Source: Flectonema sp. DT1601 (lineage: Eukaryota). From it: a DNA stretch of 64,000 bases. Below are positions 14,563 to 45,904 of the stretch, piece after piece. Position numbers and translations under genes: made by a program. The stretch lies in the NCBI GenBank assembly GCA_964019425.1, contig OZ025794.1, positions 1,240,001 to 1,304,000 on the forward strand, read 5' to 3'. The stretch's first letter is position 1, and every line of letters starts with the position of its first letter. The notes below the pieces were generated by a model. The model did not search any database. It was not told the origin of the DNA and worked only from the letters and a program-made list of their open reading frames with translations.

Positions 14563-15106
14563 ATTATTTTAATTTACAGCATCTGTCTTTCTCTTCCATT
14601 TCATAAGAATCTTATTGCCAATAACTCTCAACTCCTTACATGGGTCAGAGTTTGTCAATGAGCTGATTCGCAGTAGCAGAACCTACTGTCGCCTTTCTAT
14701 TTCTGTTTGCAATCTCTCTTTTTATGATTTCTTACTTTGAATTGTTTTCTGATCGTTGTGTGATTCAAAATATTATTTTTGATTTGCTCAGCTGTGAACT
14801 TTTCATATTACTTACTGGCTAAGGTGTATTTTTTGTTAAAACGCCCCACCCCAAGTATTCTCAACTTCAAACTCTCAACTCTCAAATTGTTAACGAGTCA
14901 GTGTTTGTGTTTAGGTTCTTGGGTATGGAAACTTAGAATTGCCGAGTTTCGTGATGATTTGCCCCCCTTTTTTTTAAAAACTTCTTTGATGCAGGTACAG
15001 CAACTGATGATCCATTTCTTCACGTGATTTTCTTTTTTTGGTCTCTTTTTTTAAATTAAACACATTCTAACTAACTCAGCAGACTTACCACAAAAAAGAA
15101 ATCAAT

Positions 15107-16530
15107 ATGGGTGACGACTTACAAAGATCTCTTAATGACAGGATGATGAAAATGAGGGCTCAGGCTCTTAGAGGAAGGAGTGGTGGAGGACTCAGTGGAG
15201 GGAATGTTGTTAGAAACACGAGCACTCCATCTACGAATTTTCAAGCATCGATACCGACAGAGAATCCTTCACGAAGCGGATCAATATACGGAGGGAGTAC
15301 CCAAGGAACAAATTATACACCCGGGCAGGTGAATGCGAACCAGCCACCCATTAATCCACATAGCATGTTTAACAATGGTCCTGGAGGTGCACCTGTTGCG
15401 ACGAATAACACTAACGTGAATTCTCATAATAATACGTCGTCTGTGAGTAATACCAAAAGTAACAACAATAACAGTAGCAGCAACAACAACGAATCTGATG
15501 ATGATGGAGCTCAAAAACTTAGAGAAAAATTAAGAGAAATGGGAATTAACGACACTGTTGCCCCCCTTTCACAAGGTATTTATTTAGAGTTTTTTGATTT
15601 ACTAATAAAGTTCATGAAATTTAAAAAATAAAAAATAATTAAAAAAAACCAGTTGAAGCAACGACAACGGTTGTTAGAAGCGCACCTAAGTTGGATGTTT
15701 CTGATCGAAGGAGTTTTCTTGGACATGCACCTCCAAAGTATGTCATCTTAGAGTGGTTTGGTCTTGTCAATTTATTCAAAAAAAAAAGAAAAAAAAAAAA
15801 AAACAGAGTTGGAATGGTCTATTGTCACATCATACGTGATCGTTCGGGATTAAAAAAATTACACCCGGAATATAACTTGTACCTTGAAGTGCCTGGTGAA
15901 GATCCGTTCTTTTTACTCGCAGCTCGTAAAAGAAAAAAGAACAAAAGTAGTAACTACCTTATCTCAATGGATCCGGAAGATTTGAATCGTTATTCTGGAA
16001 ACTTTTATGGAAAAGTCAGATCGAATTTCTTAGGAACTGAGTACACGATTTATGACAAAGGAGAGAAGGGTTCTAAAGGAGGTGGACTATCACTTCGTCA
16101 AGAGCTGGGAGCAGTGCTATACGAAACTAACATCGTAGGCAGTAAAGGACCTCGAAGAATGATCGCTGTCATACCGTCGGTAGACTCTACCGGAAAGCGT
16201 TCAGCATGGAAACCAACAATCGAAGATGGTGAGTCTCTCATCAATGCTTACAAAGCAAAGGATCGAAAAGATGATATGATTATTCTTGAAAATAAAAAGC
16301 CAAACTGGAATGAAGAGCTTCGCGCGTATATATTAGATTTCAAGGGACGAGTGACTGTCCCAAGTGTTAAAAACTTTCAACTTGTAGAGCGTCATACCGA
16401 AAAAGTTTTGGTTCAATTTGGAAAGATCGCCTCGGATAAATTTACCCTCGATTTCCAACATCCCGTAAACGGTCTTCAAGCTTTCAGCCAAGCACTCACA
16501 GCTCTGGATAATAAATTAGCTTGTGAATAG
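15107..16530 (+). CDS. Tubby-like protein; exons 15107-15575, 15653-15737, 15807-16530
   Basis: FLLAARKRKK.KSSNYLIS, GKVRSNFLGTEYTIYD, GPRRM, SVKNFQL and C-terminal KLACE. Both introns keep the frame. Confidence 0.93.
15576..15652 (+). other. GT-AG intron, 77 nt
   Basis: GTATTT...AAAAAAAACCAG; joins ORFs 15107 and 15691. Confidence 0.8.
15738..15806 (+). other. GT-AG intron, 69 nt (3n, no stop)
   Basis: GTATGT...poly-A CAG; removal deletes a spurious poly-Lys run and gives HAPPKVGMVYC. Confidence 0.8.
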
Positions 16531-24308: not shown

Positions 24309-24344
24309 AATACTACTTGGTATTTTTTTTTTTTTTTTTTTCTT

Positions 24345-24470
24345 GTACCGACGTAGTCGGAGAAAAAACTATTCAGATTGAAGGCCGATATTTCTAATGA
24401 TTTATTTTCCCCGTGCGACAGGATTTTGTCTGCGTTCAACGAAATATAAGGCTAATCTGAATGGTTTTTT
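24345..24470 (+). mobile_element. ~125-bp non-autonomous element, family A, copy 1 (terminal hairpin plus asymmetric inverted repeats)
   Basis: Near-identical reverse-complement copy at 37309-37440. CCGAC-GTA-GTCGG hairpin, then AAAAAACTATTCAGATT...AATCTGAATGGTTTTTT. Confidence 0.8.
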
Positions 24471-31654: not shown

Positions 31655-31821
31655 GTACCTTTTTTTTTCTTTTTTGTCGTTTTTTTTTAAAGTTTGTAAT
31701 CCGTACTGCCTGATTTGCAGATAATATTTTAAAGTTTAGAAAAATAATTAGCAAAACCTTTCTTTTTTGATATGAGACAACGAAAATAAAAAAATCCATT
31801 TACAACATCAGTAACACGACC

Positions 31822-33614
31822 ATGAATGACGAAGGCAATGAAGTGCTAAGTGATAGGGAAGCAGATATTAACGTTGACTACATGAAAATGACTTCAACGC
31901 CGAAGGTGATCGAGGACGCTCTAGCAGCGTTAGTAAAAACAAAACCCAATGACGTGGATGAGTATTTAGCTGAATACTTTGCTGGTAGAGTTAAGGAAAA
32001 GAACAACTTATCAAGAAAAGGTTCTGAAACCTCTCGAATCAAACAAGTTGAAAATCAACTTCAATACAGCAAAGAGAGAATTAATGACCTCGAAGGTCAG
32101 ATTAGTGAATTAAAAAAAGCAAGTTGCACACAAACAAAGAAATACCGTGTTATATCAGCTCGTGCTTGCGCTGTTTGCGCACGAGAAGACCGTCCGGGAG
32201 AGGTTCGCGCCAAAGGATTTAAATGCCGAGAATGTGTTGGTCTTCCAAGCAATCCTCTTCTTATCAGAATGGTTGACAAACAAGGAGCCATTACTAAAGG
32301 TAAAAGTGAAGATGGTGAATTCGTATTTAATGATTATGTTATTAAAAAGAACCTTCTTGGTGAGGGAGCTTTTGGAAAAGTCCGACACTGCTACCATCTT
32401 GGCAGCCCTCATCAAATGTATGCCGTTAAGACTCTTCCTATTGCCCAGTTGAAAACTCATCGTCTCAGACGAGGTGTTACAGTCTCTCGCAGACAATCAA
32501 CAGGAGGATCTAACCCCGACTCCATAGCAACTGCAAGAGATGAAAATCTTCGCCGTTGCAAGGAAGAGGTTGAGATTATGAGGCGTCTCAGCCACCCAAA
32601 CATTGTTCAGGTATGGAAAATATTTTTTCTGTGTCAAAATTTAGCTATTTTTTTTCTTCTTTTTTAATACAACAAACCCAAACACAGATTATTGACTCGA
32701 TGGAATCAGAAACAGAACTTATGATCGTAATGGAATACTTAGAGGGAGGCCAGATATTTCCTGACCAAGGCGGCGCTCCTATCCCAGCAGTAAAACTTCA
32801 AAAATACGCCTGCGCGATTGCGAGAGGTCTCGACTACTTACACTCGAATGGAGTAATTCACAGAGACATAAAGCCTGGTAATATCTTATTGGATAAACAT
32901 GACAATGTTAAATTAGCTGATTTCGGTGTGTCAGCTGAAACGAACGATAGCTTCAGAGTGTTCGGTTTTATCGGAACACCAAAATATATGTGTCCCGAAG
33001 CATTCGACAACGCATCGACAAAAGGTTTGTCAGGAGTAGCAATTGACGTTTGGGCCTTTGGAGTTACGCTGTTCACGATGGCTTTTGGTAAGAATCCTGG
33101 ATGGTCGGGATCAACGTTAACTGACTTAGGAGATAGCATCGCAAATGTGAAACTTGATTTGAATCATGAAAACGAACAACTTAACGACATAGTAAGTAGA
33201 ATGCTTGATCGTAATCCAAGTACGAGAATATCAATAGAAAATGTACTCAAGCATCCTTTTCTCGCATCTATCAGAGTTTTAAAAGGTCATCCTGTAGAGA
33301 CTCTGACTCTAAACGCTGAGTGGGATGAATCTAATAAAGCTTTACAACTTAATGAGGGAGCTGGCTTTAATGAAGTTCGTTCATTCTTTGCGAGTAGTTC
33401 TACGAAATTTCAAATTACACTTGGCAATACCTATTCAATGACTATGTACGATACAAGAAGAGATCCTCGTCTAACACGCAATGCTCACCCTGAACCTGTC
33501 GACCCGTTAGAACACAGTACTCTTCTAGCCCAACGAGAACGTGTTAACTACCAAGAAGGTTGGATAACACCTGATAGCGATACTGAAGAAGATGAAGTGA
33601 CACCTTTTGCTTAA
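31822..33614 (+). CDS. CaMKK-like Ser/Thr kinase with N-terminal RIIa/Dpy-30-like, coiled-coil and CxxC..CxxC modules; exons 31822-32610, 32688-33614
   Basis: LGEGAFGKV, YAVK, HPNIVQ|IIDSME, HRDIKPGN, DFG, GTPKYMCPE and DVWAFG. Confidence 0.88.
32611..32687 (+). other. GT-AG intron, 77 nt
   Basis: GTATGG...ACAACAAACCCAAACACAG; joins the two kinase halves. Confidence 0.85.
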
Positions 33615-36134
33615 AATATTAAATTAAGTTGTCGTCGTTGATCTCCGAATTGAACGCCCTTTACGCATTCCACTTTGCAGTCGAATTCTCTTAAGGGATT
33701 ATCCCTGTTGTTCAATGAACGTAGGGTACTATATCATTTCATTTCATTTCACTTTTTTTTTCCCGTCTTTTTTTTGCCTACTACCACCCGCAAAAACAAG
33801 TGTCTCAGTAAAGTACTGCTCTTTATCGTGCGTGGTTCCATTAGTCTTGTGCTGGTGCATTTGAAACATTTGGACAAATCTCTGTGTGGATTCGTTTTGG
33901 GCAGTTCACCTGTTGTATACATAGCATTTGGGGAAAAAAAAAAAACATATCTCTCGCTTTAATTGTAGTGACTGTTGCAAAACTCTGTTGTGTGGGGGTT
34001 TTGTTGTTATTCATTTATTCACTATTTATTTATTATTGTCTTTTATTTTTTTTTGTTTTTTCCACTGGCTGATATTTCACCACCATTAATACATTCGCTG
34101 CATAATGTGCTGCTCCTATTAAAATGACAAGTAATTTCCGTGTGTGTTTTTTTCCCATTGCCTCGATTGTCGGCATGAAGCTTTACGTTTTTGCGTAGTT
34201 ATTGGTTCTGGGTTAGAAGGGGAAGAAGAAAAAAAAAAAAAAAAAAAAAAAAACGGTTATGAGGAGCGTGGATAAAATTACCGCATTTTGTTTCGAATAG
34301 TAGAGAACCAGACACACACTTTCTCGTTAGTGCAATGTCGAGTTACAGTATGATACAAAAATAATAATAATAATAAATTTAAGAAAAAGGAAAAAAAAAA
34401 AAAAAAGATCAGTGGGTGTGAATGTTCCGCGGGATCTCACCTGCAGGAAACTGAACTGAAAAAGAACAGCCTTATTCGTGCTCATAGGGAGAATTTAAAA
34501 AAAAAGATTCTCATGTTTGTTTTGTTCTGAGTCGGTTTCACCCCAACCCTCCACCCACCCACAGCATGTCTTATCAAAACATCGATAAACTGAAGTATGT
34601 TTGATTTAGTTATAAAATACCATTTTCCCCCTTCATTTTCTTTTTTAAAAAAAATCTATTACCCATCCAAAAGATTATTTCTTCGTTCGCGCTAAATTAC
34701 AACATTACCAGTTCATACTCGGTGTTGAAAAAAAAAAAAAATAAAAAGAAAGAAAGGGATTATTGCAAAAAAAAATTAACATTTCATGTTATTTCTTTTT
34801 TTTTTTTTTAATGCTTAGTTTCTTCTAAAATACAGCCTATCATCATCATTACACTTTGGGGTGATCTTAACCTTTAAAATGATACAATTCTCTGCCCGCC
34901 CTCCCACCCACCCATGAATGTTTTGATAAGTAAGGTTATATTTCACAAAAAAAAAAAAAAAAATGGAGGTGGCATTTCAAGATCAATGCGAAAACGCTTG
35001 ATGATGAAATCATTTTGTTGCAAAAAATCTATAATTATAATTCTTAAAAGCTGCAAAGCCTACGGGGCGTGGCCATGGTTCTCTCATATTAATTAATATT
35101 GAGTGACCGTTATTTGATTTCCTTGCAGTTAATTGATTATTCATTTATTTGTGGTAACTAACTGCTATTGTCCCTAGAAGTTAAGAGGGACTGAAACTAC
35201 GTATTGCACAGCGTTTTTAGAATAATTGTGCTTTTTATTATTTTTTTTTATTTTGATTTAGTGCTCAATATTCTAACTGTTGTTATGGATAATACTAACT
35301 AACCTTTCCTGTGTGGGTGGAGCGATTTTTATGTTGTAAAAAAGAAAAATTAAAATTTATGGTGTCTGCAATGCGAGATACTGACGAAAATTTTTCCCAA
35401 CCAAGAAAAAAAAAAAAAATTCTTTCCTTTTTTTTCTTTGTTTCCCCTCCGGTCTTAGTGATGCATTGGACATTGCTTGATACTATTGGGAAGGAAAAAA
35501 AAAAAAACTTTGAAAAGTTTTTGAGAAGGAAAAATTCATCAAAAAAGGAAAAGAAAAAGAGGAGAAGAAAAGGATTCATTCATGAGATACTAGTTTTAGT
35601 TGGTTGTGACGTCCTTTTCGTCTCACCGTTGTTAAGCCCAGAAGTGAGATTCCTTGTGGGATTCGTTTCTCTACTTGACGTCTTGATATCTACTTTCCCA
35701 ATTTCTTTTTTATCATTAGTAGCAAAGCTGTAGCTGTGTTAACTCAGGAGAGACTCTTTTCTTATCATTTTTTGACAACGATTCCGTGCTTTTCTCTCTG
35801 TTTTGTCGTCCCCATCCGCGTGTTGGTTATGATTTAGTATTAATTTCCTGTTTTCTCGTTTCCCGTTTTTTGATCCGAATAGTTCTCTACATCAATATAT
35901 TGATATTAGGATTTACTTAGCACCCACTCATTCTGTTGGTACTCCCGTTTATCCCCGAAAACCAAAACTATTTGTTTGATGTCCTTTACGATTTAATGAT
36001 TTGATTTTTTTTTTTTTTTTTTTGGGAAAACCCCTAATTCCACAAAAATAGTTTGCGAAATCGCCAACTCATCACAAAAATTTTAACCGCTCGAAACAAC
36101 CCAACATGACGGGAAAATTTTCAGAATTTTTTGA

Positions 36135-36213
36135 GCTCCGGTGGTCTACTGGTTATGACCGCCGAATCATGACCCGGAGGTCTCGGGTTCGAACCCCGTG
36201 ACATCCTTTTTTT
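36135..36213 (+). pseudogene. tRNA-like unit (CAT at the anticodon position) with A/B boxes and T7 terminator
   Basis: A box TGGTCTACTGG 36142-36152 and B box GGTTCGAACCC 36186-36196. D and T arms pair; acceptor and anticodon stems do not pair properly. Confidence 0.75.
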
Positions 36214-36450
36214 CTCTTTTTCGTAATGACGGAAAATGAGACCAAAACATAGTCAAAGGGCGGATTGATCACCCACTGGTCGAGTTGAGACATATTCCCG
36301 TTGCAATAAATCACCAAGACCCCTCCCGTGTGATCGATCACTTTAAAATGTTACTGTGCAGTTCACCAGTGAGACTAAGACCTCCAACCAAAATTCACCA
36401 GACTTCAAGTTCCAAATTAGGTAATTTTTGTTAGGCATATTCGAACCATC

Positions 36451-36505
36451 GACAACAGAAATTCTCACGTTAGTAAAAGCCTTTAGAAATGTGGCTTAAC
36501 GATCC
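36451..36505 (+). pseudogene. Condensed LSU rRNA domain V fragment, sense on +
   Basis: ACAGAAATTCTCACGT / GTAAAAGC / GAAATGTGGCTTAACGATCC are three collinear pieces resembling conserved LSU sequence, with the spacers deleted. Confidence 0.55.
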
Positions 36506-36544
36506 TCATCATCGATTTAGGTTCGTGACTCAGAAGCCTTCGTC

Positions 36545-36937
36545 ATGTGGCCCTCCTCCCAGCCAAACTCCCAACATGACTGGTGTCTCCAAACGAGGGG
36601 TCGAGCCGAAGCCCGTTTGTCGCCGGAATCGGAAAAGCCACGAGTCCGAAAGGACCGTAACCTCCGAAGAGGCAGCTGCCGTTCCCCCATCATTGGATAA
36701 GTAAAGCGACGATAAGAGTAGTGGTATTTCATTGTTGGTAAACCTCCCACCTATAACTACACCCGACTAGAGTCAAACTCAACAGGGTCTTCTTTCCCCG
36801 CTGACAGTTTCAAGTCCGTTCCCTTGACTGCTGTTCGCCAGATAGTAGGTAGGGGCAGAAGGAATCTCATTGGTCCATTCATGCGCGTCTTTAATTAGAA
36901 GACGAGGCATTTGGCTACCTACCGAGAGTCATCAGTT
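36545..36937 (-). pseudogene. LSU (28S-type) rRNA fragment, approx. helices 69-80, degenerate
   Basis: Minus strand reads GGTAGCCAAATGCCTCGTCTTCTAATTAAAGACGCGCATGAATGG...CAGCGGGGAAAGAAGACCCTGTTGAGTTTGACTCTAGT...TGAAATACCACTACTC...GGGAGTTTGGCTGGG, with an internal deletion and substitutions. Confidence 0.92.
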
Positions 36938-37007
36938 GCAAATTTGTTTTTTCTGGTTGGACTTTGTACGGGACAGGCGGGCTTTTATTAGGGCTCCCCC
37001 CCTTGGG

Positions 37008-37052
37008 GGGGGGCTTGCGTCCCGCCAAGAATTTGGCGGACGCAAGCCCCCC
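37008..37052. other. 20-bp GC-rich hairpin (one bulge, 4-nt loop)
   Basis: GGGGGGCTTGCGTCCCGCCAA-GAAT-TTGGCGGACGCAAGCCCCCC. Confidence 0.9.
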
Positions 37053-37064
37053 TTGCACTCTTCC

Positions 37065-37148
37065 CAGCTTAGTAGGCTAAAAAACAAAAAACCCGCCGCA
37101 AGCCAAATTTTTGGGTCAAGTTCGAGTCCTGGTGGACAACTTTTTTTT
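37065..37148 (+). promoter_or_regulatory. Second, more degenerate tRNA-like Pol III unit
   Basis: A-box-like CAGCTTAGTAGG 37065-37076, B-box-like AGTTCGAGTCC 37119-37129 and T8 at 37141-37148. Confidence 0.5.
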
Positions 37149-37308
37149 GTAGGGAGTTGGCGATTTCGCAAACTATTTTTGTTGAATTAGAGGTTTTCCC
37201 TTTTTTTTTTGTAATTTTTTTTAAACAAAAAAAAAAAATTACCCAAAATAAGAAAATACGTGTTTTTTTTGCTATGCCGATTTTTTCAACATCAGCATAG
37301 TAAAAAAA

Positions 37309-37440
37309 AAAAAACCATTCAGATTAGCCTTATATTTCATTGAACGCAGACAAAATCCTGTTGCATGGGGAAAATAAATCACGGCCATTAGAAATATCAG
37401 TTTTCAATCTGAATAGTTTCTTCTCCGACTACGTCGGTAC
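37309..37440 (-). mobile_element. Family A element, copy 2 (inverted relative to copy 1)
   Basis: Reverse complement matches 24345-24470 except for a few substitutions and a 6-nt indel. Confidence 0.8.
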
Positions 37441-38294
37441 AAAAAAAATTTTTTTTTGACAAGTAGTCTCTCGTATTATTTCAGTCATCTTTTTAATCTA
37501 TTTTCTCCTATTATTTTTCTCTGCAGTACAGCGATGGAGAAAAAAACAAGTTCCACTCCGGATGTTGTTTATTGGTTCATTCATTTCAGTCTTATTATTC
37601 TGTACAAACGAATAAGGAAATAAAAACATCACGGAGGCAGGTAAAGAAAGAAATTTATGTAAGTTATTTTCCCTGGATCTTCGACTTCCCTTGTATTCGG
37701 AAGAAGAAAAAAAAAAAAAAAGGAAAAAACGTCTGAAAAGAAAGTGTTATGTCGTTGTGTAATTCTTTTTTTTGCAAAATGTAAAAGAAAAAAAGAAGAA
37801 AAGAAAAAAGGAAAAAAATAATAAAAAACAAACGGGCAAACGTACTCATACTATCTTCTGTTTTTTTTCGACAAACGAGAATTGATATAAAAAAAAAAAG
37901 AAAAAAAAAAGGAATAAAGAATCATTAAAGAACTTACATTTCTTTTACGTTATTTTGACCCCATTCCGCTTCACTCGAACTTTCGTAATCCAAGGGAGTC
38001 CTTTCGTTCTTTCAAAAAAAAAAAAAAAAAAAAGTTCTGTTCTTTTAAAAATAATATTTCTAAAATGGTGAAAAAAAAAAAAAAAAAAAATAAATAAAAA
38101 TAAAGCTTTAATATTTCACATTCCTTTTTCCTTTTTTCAATAAATCAGGAGTGATCGAACACAAGTTTTTTAAATAATAATAATAATAATAAAAAAAAAT
38201 ACTACTCATGCTTTGGACGATCAGCTGAAGGAATATCACCAATTTAAAGGGCATTCATATTACTCAATTAAAACAGTATCTGCAAATATATAAA

Positions 38295-44334: not shown

Positions 44335-45207
44335 TCTTTTCAACTTACTGACATCCACACCAACATCAGATGGTTATCGTATTTGGTGTTTTGGCTTTTA
44401 TTTTTATTTTACGGAATTAACTCTTCCTGTGTGTGTGTGAGGGGGAGAGTGATAAGGTGGACCAAAACGAGAAAAAAAATGAACTTCTTTTTTTGTGAAA
44501 TTTTTTTTTTTTTTTTTCAGGTGTTCCTTCGTTTCTTCTTCACGAACTGTTTTAGAAATTTCTCCCCTTTTTTTTTCGTTCTTGCTTAATTATTTATCAT
44601 TCAGCATGTTGACTTCTTTGTAAATGGGAAATCATCCATACATAAGTCTATTAGTATTATTATTATTATCGTTTAATGGTGTTTTTCTACTGCTTTAATT
44701 CGCGAGATGAATGGTACGTGAGTTACCTCGGCATGGGTTTTTTAATGTTCCACACTGTTATCATTTGCCCTGTTGGCTAGATGCATTAATTATTTCTGAG
44801 CTTTCCTACGGCTGTCCCATTTTTGCAATTACTACATAAGTAGTTCTATGCACGTGTGTGTTTTTTTTTTTTTTTTTTTTTTTAAATAAACACGACGACA
44901 GAATCATAATTGTAAAATAAATAAAAGGGGCGAACATATACGGCAATGCGAAGTATTCTTTTTTCCTTTCCTTTTTTTTTTCCTCTTCTTTTTTTATTTT
45001 TTCTCTCCTCAGAAGAGTATGTTTATTATTTATTAACTGAATTGTATGTATTCTTTTCCTTCTCCCTCCACCAAAGAAACTTGGCAAAATATTACGATTG
45101 CCTGTTTTATGGTGACGGTTCTTTTGTTTTTATTTTTGTGCAAAGACCAGCAGTACTCTTCCTAGATAGCTCTTTTCGTATCGTCCCAACATAACGACGG
45201 TATGTGT

Positions 45208-45312
45208 ATCCCCAAATTACCAGATTCGACAACGTCTTCTGGTCAATATGACAAGAAATATATTTCCCTTTTTTTTTTCAAAACGTTCCTTTCTTTGATA
45301 AGCAACTTCAAC
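45208..45312 (+). repeat. Dispersed repeat family B, 5' partial copy
   Basis: ATCCCCAAATTACCAGATTCGACAACGTCTTCTGGTCAATATGACAAGAAATATATTTCCC is nearly identical to the sequence from 45696 onward. Confidence 0.9.
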
Positions 45313-45695
45313 AACGAGACAATAAGTGAAACCTACTCTGCCATACATTGTACCTTAGTTTTGGTTTCTCAGGGCTCACGATTATTTCGTAATTGAATAA
45401 CTCGATTCCGTACTGCACTGAATGACACCACAGAAAAAGATACATATATTCAGATATGTTAGAAATATTTATTATATTGTAGGGCATGTACGTCATTTGC
45501 AGATTGTTAGCCTATATTAACATTATTAGTACTGTGTCGTGAGTTTTTTTTTTATTTCACTATATAGCTTTGATACAATATAGAGATTTATATTCGTATA
45601 AACCAAATCAACCTCATCCGTAACAGATGTTAATTATCGTTATGTTTGTGATACAATTCAAACATTCAACCTCCCCAGCTTGGTGATAGTACGTG

Positions 45696-45904
45696 ATCCC
45701 CAAATTACCAGATTCGACGACGTATTCTGGTCAATATGACAAGAAATATATTTCCCTTTTTTATGCAATCTTTTTTCTAAACGTACCTTTACTTTGATTA
45801 ACAACTACAAATAATTTTATTCAGTCAAAGTGCTTGATATTAATTTTATTTTAATACCCTAAAGTTGTTACTGTTTCTTACGTTGTCAAAGTTTCAGCCC
45901 TCCC
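45696..45904 (+). repeat. Dispersed repeat family B, longest copy
   Basis: Overlaps in sequence with all three other copies. Confidence 0.85.

What the first reader, a model, noticed from the sequence alone, without database searches (positions are those of the whole stretch)
36024..37200. ORF-less TIR element carrying Pol III promoter units and a rearranged LSU rRNA core
Seen: 47-bp TIRs (45/47 match) starting GGGAAAA, with T-runs on both sides. Internal order is TIR, tRNA-like A/B unit with T7, rRNA pieces sense on +, a ~390-nt rRNA piece on -, GC hairpin, second A/B-like unit with T8, TIR. Known: G-starting TIRs with 9-11 bp TSDs and captured host fragments typify Mutator/Pack-MULEs, whose cargo is normally protein-gene fragments. 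Inference: this element's cargo is structural RNA plus its own candidate promoters, so it may be a mobile ncRNA cassette (antisense or decoy rRNA, small-RNA source) rather than debris. I do not know of a described equivalent.
Basis: partly seen in the sequence, partly recalled or inferred. Interest (0 to 1): 0.88.

Follow-up and report, generated by a model that had tools for sequence, protein, structure and literature searches.

The report
Jumping element carrying ribosomal RNA core
In a marine single-celled flagellate (likely a diplonemid), a 1.2-kb element with matching inverted ends carries a damaged 380-base piece of the ribosome's large RNA between two tRNA-like promoter motifs; near-identical copies occur in two other sequencing runs, so it is likely a young non-coding jumping-gene family whose RNA cargo is probably a passenger.

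Summary
The 1177-bp element (36024-37200) has TIRs matching at 45/47 (52/57) and sits in T19/T10 runs. It holds the window's only two A-box + B-box + T-run units, a strong GC hairpin, and a 380-nt LSU rRNA core on the minus strand. The core nests among 18 environmental LSU genes; it differs at 8 of 297 invariant columns and lacks 22 nt. The 'sense' rRNA pieces are only faint, about 30% diverged remnants. The host is likely a diplonemid. Low-depth contigs from two other studies hold the element at about 98-99% identity with the same cargo order but not its flanks, so it is likely a young multicopy family and not a misassembly. Best reading: a non-autonomous cut-and-paste transposon (Mutator-like more likely than Merlin) that targets poly-T and carries passenger RNA-gene debris captured at different times. 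It is a candidate vehicle for the ~3600 scattered 28S pieces reported in Diplonema papillatum. Function is not shown: no transcription data, no uneven conservation, and one copy has a changed A box. One hint remains: kinetoplastid-type promoter geometry would start a transcript about 23 nt before the rRNA core. New variant of a known kind.

The parts
36005..36023 (.). Left flank, T19 run (target site; holds the unreadable TSD)
36024..36080 (+). Left terminal inverted repeat, 57 nt, starts GGGAAAA
36135..36213 (+). tRNA-derived unit 1: 72-nt tRNA layout with A box (36142), B box (36186), CAT at the anticodon position, broken acceptor and anticodon stems, T7 terminator (36207-36213)
   Evidence: tRNA numbering done by eye on the sequence
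36255..36277 (+). Short sense remnant of LSU rRNA (19 of 23 letters match a site about 300 nt downstream of the core); weak on its own
36410..36557 (+). Strongly decayed sense remnant of the LSU stretch that follows the core in the rRNA (about 30% different at invariant columns, 15 gaps); lies as an in-place inversion would leave it
36558..36937 (-). 380-nt LSU rRNA core (LSU nt 2328-2733 of 3480 in L015), 8 changes at 297 invariant columns, one 22-nt deletion; antisense to the host genes' strand
36990..37055 (.). GC-rich hairpin (arms 37008-37052) with adjoining C7/G9 runs; no match to the rDNA loci tested
37058..37148 (+). tRNA-like unit 2: imperfect A box (37065), T5 between the boxes, B box (37119), T8 overlapping the right TIR
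37144..37200 (-). Right terminal inverted repeat
   Evidence: also on an independent contig in run X2
37201..37210 (.). Right flank, T10 run

Best explanation
The element is likely a copy of a young, multicopy, non-autonomous cut-and-paste DNA transposon of a probable diplonemid, bounded by G-starting TIRs, inserted in a poly-T tract, and carrying tRNA-derived and LSU-rRNA-derived cargo that is probably a passenger. Shown: TIRs, poly-T flanks, no coding capacity, cargo anatomy, an LSU core from the host's likely clade that is structurally damaged, and near-identical copies elsewhere with the same order. Inferred: a transposase encoded elsewhere (Mutator-like about 55%, Merlin or another G-ended superfamily otherwise) binds the TIRs and moves it; a TSD of at most 10 T's is hidden in the flanks. 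Inferred: cargo was gained in steps, by template switching during repair of excision gaps or by insertion of RNA-gene copies; the ten-fold gap in decay between the sense remnant (about 30%) and the core (2.7%) means a later capture, or refreshing of the core by gene conversion with rDNA. Inferred: unit 1 could give a short ~75-nt Pol III RNA or just bind TFIIIC, and host Pol II read-through on the + strand would make antisense-rRNA sequence passively; neither need be useful.
For: TIRs 45/47, T19/T10 flanks, longest stop-free frame 113 codons. Run X1 has one 735-nt contig at depth 3.3 covering 36040-36750 with 9 substitutions, a 7-nt insertion and a 1-nt deletion; run X2 (another study) has three pieces at depth 2-4.6, one being the right TIR joined to unit 2; neither run covers the unique left flank; three variants are shared by X1 and X2 against the window. 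The core groups with L006/L015 among 18 LSU genes (FastTree support 0.977) but has 8 changes at 297 invariant columns against 0-3 for real genes, plus a 22-nt deletion. Copy differences are spread out: 1/95 subterminal, 3/72 unit 1, 3/351 interior, 2/193 core. No clustering of conservation in the core (9855 of 20000 shuffles). D. papillatum has MULE ORFs and about 3600 scattered 28S pieces up to 10% of gene length (PMC10161547); this core is 10.9%. A Mutator family with G-run ends, 9-bp TSD and a simple-repeat target is known (MuTAnT, PMC4486113).
Against: No TSD, empty site, copy number or transposase partner was seen: no genome is held, and the TIR pattern found 0 matches in metagenome and viral contigs and no third copy in the window. 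The other copies are partial, low-depth contigs whose host species and flanks are unknown. The cargo is unusually uniform in kind (only tRNA and rRNA), both A/B units face the same way at the two ends, and kinetoplastid-type promoter spacing would start a transcript about 23 nt before the core; simple debris does not predict this. Nine substitutions give little power to detect selection.
Confidence: 0.65

Rival explanations
1. Mobile Pol III RNA cassette: unit 2's boxes act as a kinetoplastid-type divergent promoter and drive a minus-strand RNA from about 36960 through the sense LSU core (about 325 nt to the first T4, or longer). The RNA would act as a decoy for ribosome-assembly factors or R2-type retroelements, or pair with + strand read-through to give small RNAs.
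For: In trypanosomatids box A of a divergent tRNA-like unit lies 104-106 bp upstream of the snRNA, its sequence is loose and box B is conserved (PMC4950102). Applied to unit 2 this gives 36959-36961, 22-24 nt before the core's 5' end. The core is ten times better kept than the neighbouring remnant and keeps perfect runs of 71, 65 and 59 nt with a real LSU. Three of the eight changes are adjacent (36921-36923) and alter the motif recalled as the R2/Pokey target. T4 can terminate Pol III in L. major (PMC2695483).
Against: No RNA evidence: the six runs on record as RNA hold only 0.08 of the words and none was laid. This promoter type was not tested or found described for diplonemids. The same rule puts unit 1's start inside the TIR (36037). 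The core has a 22-nt deletion; copy differences are not lower there; the geometry was noticed after the fact.
Confidence: 0.15
2. The cargo serves the element rather than the cell: TFIIIC bound at both ends shields the TIRs or keeps them open, and rDNA homology draws gene conversion or nucleolar association, as 5S promoters serve Cassandra elements.
For: Both box units lie next to the TIRs and are kept in other copies. Pol III promoter capture is proposed to benefit some TEs (PMC10946416 section 11). tRNA genes mark Pol II boundaries in trypanosomatids.
Against: The X1 copy has a changed A-box base and 3 changes in 72 nt of unit 1 (a single contig at depth 3.3, so errors are possible). A DNA transposon needs no transcript to move.
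Confidence: 0.13
3. Nested product: a plain MITE into which a SINE28-like or tRNA-SINE retrocopy was inserted, so that the rRNA piece moves or moved through RNA.
For: SINE28 is a Pol III SINE derived from 28S (PMC4994717 abstract); two other B-box plus T-run sites occur in the window.
Against: No poly-A tail or direct repeat is visible at the core's ends (sequence); the core is an internal LSU stretch on the strand opposite to both box units; other copies keep TIR and cargo together.
Confidence: 0.05
4. Misassembly or one-off chimera of rDNA reads.
For: Homopolymer flanks; no long read of this locus was seen.
Against: An independent contig runs through TIR, unit 1, interior and half of the core, and another joins unit 2 to the right TIR; the core has private changes and a deletion not found in 18 rRNA genes.
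Confidence: 0.02

Closest known systems
Pack-MULEs and non-autonomous MULEs such as MuTAnT (PMC4486113)
   Same: Non-coding, G-run ends, TIR about 47 nt, insertion in a simple repeat that hides the TSD, captured host sequence
   Different: Cargo is rRNA and tRNA rather than protein-gene fragments (Pack-MULE cargo recalled); target is poly-T; TSD length and transposase not shown
Merlin superfamily (PMC8101967)
   Same: TIRs of 24-462 bp starting GG, 8-9 bp TSD, present in Euglena and kinetoplastids
   Different: No transposase or readable TSD here; no RNA cargo in the passages read
Pokey/mPok of Daphnia (PMC10946416)
   Same: The only DNA transposon in the review's table with rDNA-derived sequence
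   Different: piggyBac type, inserts into 28S and carries spacer (IGS) repeats, not 28S coding sequence or tRNA boxes
SINE28 (PMC4994717) and Cassandra/Ajax TRIMs (PMC10946416)
   Same: TEs holding rRNA-derived sequence with Pol III transcription
   Different: Retroelements; SINE28 derives from the 28S 3' end, Cassandra from 5S; no TIRs
Scattered 28S pieces of Diplonema papillatum (PMC10161547)
   Same: Likely the same protist group; about 3600 dispersed pieces up to 10% of 28S length, against 10.9% here
   Different: The main-text passages liken them to TRIMs and SINEs and name no TIR or tRNA boxes; Additional file 1 could not be read
Trypanosomatid tRNA-like/snRNA divergent Pol III promoters (PMC4950102)
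   Same: tRNA-like A/B unit with an RNA-like sequence upstream on the other strand at about 105 bp from box A
   Different: Those are fixed single-copy snRNA genes; here inside a mobile element and untested

Membership tests
Non-autonomous TIR DNA transposon | Terminal inverted repeats | tested here: met
   45/47 and 52/57
Non-autonomous TIR DNA transposon | No transposase ORF | tested here: met
   longest stop-free frame 113 codons; no ORF of 150 aa or more there
Non-autonomous TIR DNA transposon | Several dispersed copies | tested here: inconclusive
   variant copies in 2 of 4 runs laid, without this locus's left flank; their own flanks and number not seen
Mutator/MULE | 9-11 bp TSD | tested here: inconclusive
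   T19 and T10 allow any TSD up to 10 T's
Mutator/MULE | Autonomous partner with MURA-like transposase and the same TIRs | not testable with these tools
   no genome held; TIR pattern absent from metagenome and viral contigs
Merlin | 5'-GG ends | tested here: met
   GGG at both ends; rule
Merlin | 8-9 bp TSD and IS1595-type transposase partner | tested here: inconclusive
   poly-T flanks; no partner seen
Pack-type element | Captured host sequence between TIRs | tested here: met
   LSU core nests among 18 LSU genes; the host's own rDNA was not available
SINE28 / tRNA SINE | Promoter head and body on one strand, A-rich or simple tail, no TIRs | tested here: not met
   core is opposite to both box units, no tail, TIR-bounded
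Functional tRNA gene | Cloverleaf with paired acceptor and anticodon stems | tested here: not met
   ARAGORN 0, Rfam no tRNA hit, stems broken (and by eye)
Kinetoplastid-type divergent Pol III promoter | Box A 104-106 bp from a transcription start on the other strand | tested here: inconclusive
   predicted start 36959-36961; no RNA ends available

The most novel reading that the evidence does not exclude
A DNA transposon family in diplonemids that spreads a self-contained Pol III gene: a tRNA-like divergent promoter drives a ~325-nt or longer copy of the ribosome's conserved LSU core, with the R2/Pokey target motif altered, acting as a decoy RNA or as a source of rRNA-matched small RNAs; such elements would also explain the thousands of scattered 28S pieces in Diplonema.
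Probability: 0.15. Interest if true: 0.85.

Novelty: new variant of a known kind. Interest (0 to 1): 0.52.

Why it matters
A 2024 review of rDNA inside TEs lists SINEs, TRIMs and one DNA transposon with spacer sequence, but no TIR element carrying 28S coding sequence. This element fills that gap and gives a testable vehicle for the roughly 3600 scattered 28S pieces of D. papillatum. Such copies can also mislead rRNA annotation, LSU metabarcoding and rDNA copy counts. If the cargo is transcribed from its own promoter, it would be a mobile ncRNA gene aimed at the ribosome's core and would show that the kinetoplastid divergent promoter works in diplonemids.

Tried and rejected
No genome assembly was held, so copy number, TSDs and a partner transposase could not be sought. 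TIR pattern scans: 0 in metagenome contigs, 0 in viral contigs, only the two known ends in the window. A eukaryotic LSU pattern found 0 in viral contigs. Rfam at gathering score missed the core in the whole window and found no rRNA in 36210-36560. nhmmer on the interior passed no residues through its filters and is uninformative. The whole interior 36215-36557 was not above shuffles against whole LSUs (142 and 182 of 200); the 36225-36310 piece alone was weak (16 and 62 of 200). The first count of 17 changes at invariant columns was inflated by misalignment at the deletion and ends; the corrected count is 8 of 297. My idea that the core's middle is specially conserved failed (9855 of 20000 shuffles). 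Relaxed ARAGORN gave 178 calls across the window and is noise. 36278-36410 and 36938-37060 match no rDNA locus tested. The absence of a host rDNA contig in X1 was not used, since such contigs can be filtered out. Earlier findings of the scan held nothing on this genome or sequence. Supplements of PMC10161547: no hit for 28S, MULE, SINE or terminal inverted in 7 files; Additional file 1 unreadable.

Full report
Host and setting. All 25 ORFs of 150 aa or more in the window lie on the + strand. The next gene downstream is a pyridoxal kinase whose best named relative is from Diplonema papillatum (48% identity; window contig 635 kb). The host is therefore likely a diplonemid with polycistronic + strand transcription (inference). 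The element lies in a 4.6-kb gap between ORFs ending at 33614 and starting at 38229 and is richer in G+C (47%) than its flanks (33%). No assembly was held.

Ends. The TIRs are 36024-36080 and 37144-37200, 52 of 57 matching and 45 of the first 47, both starting GGGAAAA. The flanks are T19 and T10, so a TSD of up to 10 T's is possible but its length cannot be read. The window has 134 A or T runs of 9 or more, giving about a 1% chance that a random site lies in one; a preference for poly-T is thus likely but rests on one insertion. No third TIR copy is in the window. The longest stop-free frame is 113 codons.

tRNA-like units. Unit 1 has an exact A box (36142) and B box (36186) at tRNA spacing and a T7. 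Numbered by eye it is a 72-nt tRNA layout with D arm, CAT at the anticodon position, a five-base variable loop and a T arm, but broken acceptor and anticodon stems; ARAGORN and Rfam do not call it. Unit 2 has a B box with one mismatch, a weaker A box, an A-rich filler and a T5 before the B box; five T's of its T8 belong to the right TIR. They are the only 2 complete units among 10 B-box-like sites in the window, and 0 of 100 shuffles gave one. A GC hairpin (z -6.3, 0 of 200 shuffles) lies just inside unit 2.

rRNA cargo. A pattern from the piece fetched 19 metagenome loci; the three scanned are contiguous full-length LSU genes of about 3.47 kb. All 19 match 36558 onward on the minus strand, 18 over the whole 380 nt; L004 is too short and was dropped. 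The core is LSU nt 2328-2733 of 3480, 10.9% of the gene. It is 84-90% identical to the 18 (they are 89.5-99.8% to each other; six other eukaryotic LSUs about 70%) and groups with L006 and L015 at support 0.977. At columns invariant in all 18 it differs at 8 of 297 (a first count of 17 was a misalignment), against 0-3 for real genes left out in turn, and it lacks a 22-nt block that all 18 have. From recall, the piece runs from helix 69 to the P loop and the deletion removes one strand at the base of the L1 stalk; three adjacent changes (36921-36923) alter the motif recalled as the R2/Pokey target. The changes are not unevenly spread (9855 of 20000 shuffles). The sense pieces are faint. 36410-36557 aligns to the LSU stretch that starts 12 nt after the core's end, at 70-73% with 15 gaps and 33 of 120 or 37 of 124 invariant columns changed; shuffles reach its score in 0 and 14 of 200 (whole LSU, both strands) and 0 and 4 of 1000 (next 250 nt only), with bounds chosen after looking. 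The three best ungapped sense matches together beat 100 of 100 shuffles in both references. The whole interior is not significant against whole LSUs (142 and 182 of 200), and Rfam misses it. Its position fits an in-place inversion, but the 36255-36277 remnant needs a further rearrangement. The ten-fold difference in decay means separate captures or later refreshing of the core.

Other copies. Of 20 runs listed, two held more than a fifth of the words (0.37, 0.23). Four runs were laid on 35500-36750. X1 has a 735-nt contig at depth 3.3 over 36040-36750 with 9 substitutions, a 7-nt insertion and a 1-nt deletion; its 16 remaining letters would end at the TIR's first base. X2, from another study, has pieces at 36071-36234 and 36402-36552 and a contig joining the right TIR to unit 2, at depth 2-4.6. 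Neither covers the unique flank. X1 and X2 share three variants against the window, and X1 has private ones, so at least three versions exist. X3 showed only rRNA-like contigs and X20 nothing. Assembly of the element without its flank at such depth is what a multicopy repeat of a rare organism gives (inference; filters can drop contigs, and host species and flanks are unknown). X1's differences fall 1/95, 3/72, 3/351 and 2/193 in the subterminal, unit 1, interior and core segments, one in the A box: no sign of constraint, with little power. TIR scans of metagenome and viral contigs found 0.

Mechanism. Most likely (0.65) a non-autonomous cut-and-paste element moved by a transposase from elsewhere, with passenger cargo. 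Unit 1 would give at most a short RNA ending at T7, so Pol III antisense rRNA from it is unlikely; host Pol II read-through would copy the core in antisense passively. The best hint of function is geometric: trypanosomatid snRNAs start 104-106 bp from box A of a divergent tRNA-like unit (PMC4950102, passages), which for unit 2 gives 36959-36961, about 23 nt before the core's 5' end; the first T4 on that strand is at 36633, and T4 can terminate in L. major (PMC2695483, passages). The same rule gives nothing sensible for unit 1, and no RNA evidence exists (0.15).

Comparison with print. D. papillatum has MULE, TATE and Helitron ORFs and about 3600 scattered 28S pieces up to 10% of gene length, likened to TRIMs and SINEs (PMC10161547, passages); seven supplements had no relevant hit and Additional file 1, which covers repeats and may describe these pieces, could not be read. 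[quoted passage not shown] SINE28: abstract only (PMC4994717). Merlin: GG ends, 8-9 bp TSD, present in Euglenozoa (PMC8101967, passages). MuTAnT: Mutator family in TA repeats, GGGG ends, mean TIR 47 bp, 9-bp TSD (PMC4486113, passages). PMC9082867 was seen as a search listing only; a diplonemid genome preprint held nothing relevant in the passages shown. Searches showed no TIR element with 28S coding cargo and tRNA boxes; the library lacks most subscription papers and Repbase.

Verdict. Real, likely mobile and multicopy, unusual in cargo, superfamily unsettled, function unshown: a new variant of a known kind, interest 0.52.

Noticed in passing
window 37309-37448 and 24337-24470: A second, 140-nt dispersed repeat (90% identical, opposite orientation), one copy only 108 nt from the right TIR. 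Both sit in A/T runs; it has a short inner inverted repeat near both ends and a small hairpin near one end, recalling Helentron-associated non-autonomous elements (recalled, untested).
   Followed up: partly
window 336 (+) and 22545 (-): Two further B-box plus T-run sites without an A box, similar to the 3' end of unit 2 (0 of 300 shuffles each, but chosen for that motif); possible decayed tRNA-like repeats or lone TFIIIC sites.
   Followed up: partly
window 45200-45311 and 45689-45810: A local direct repeat of about 120 nt, 84% identical, in an intergenic gap.
   Followed up: no
window 1-64000: All 25 ORFs of 150 aa or more are on the + strand, some apparently split by short introns (31771-33614; 15071-16530), as expected for a diplonemid polycistronic unit.
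   Followed up: partly
L001-L019: Nineteen environmental LSU rDNA contigs, 89.5-99.8% alike in the core, probably diplonemid; the three scanned have an unbroken 28S.
   Followed up: partly
L020-L044: Eukaryotic-type LSU rDNA matches inside bacterial and archaeal genome records, likely contamination of those assemblies.
   Followed up: no
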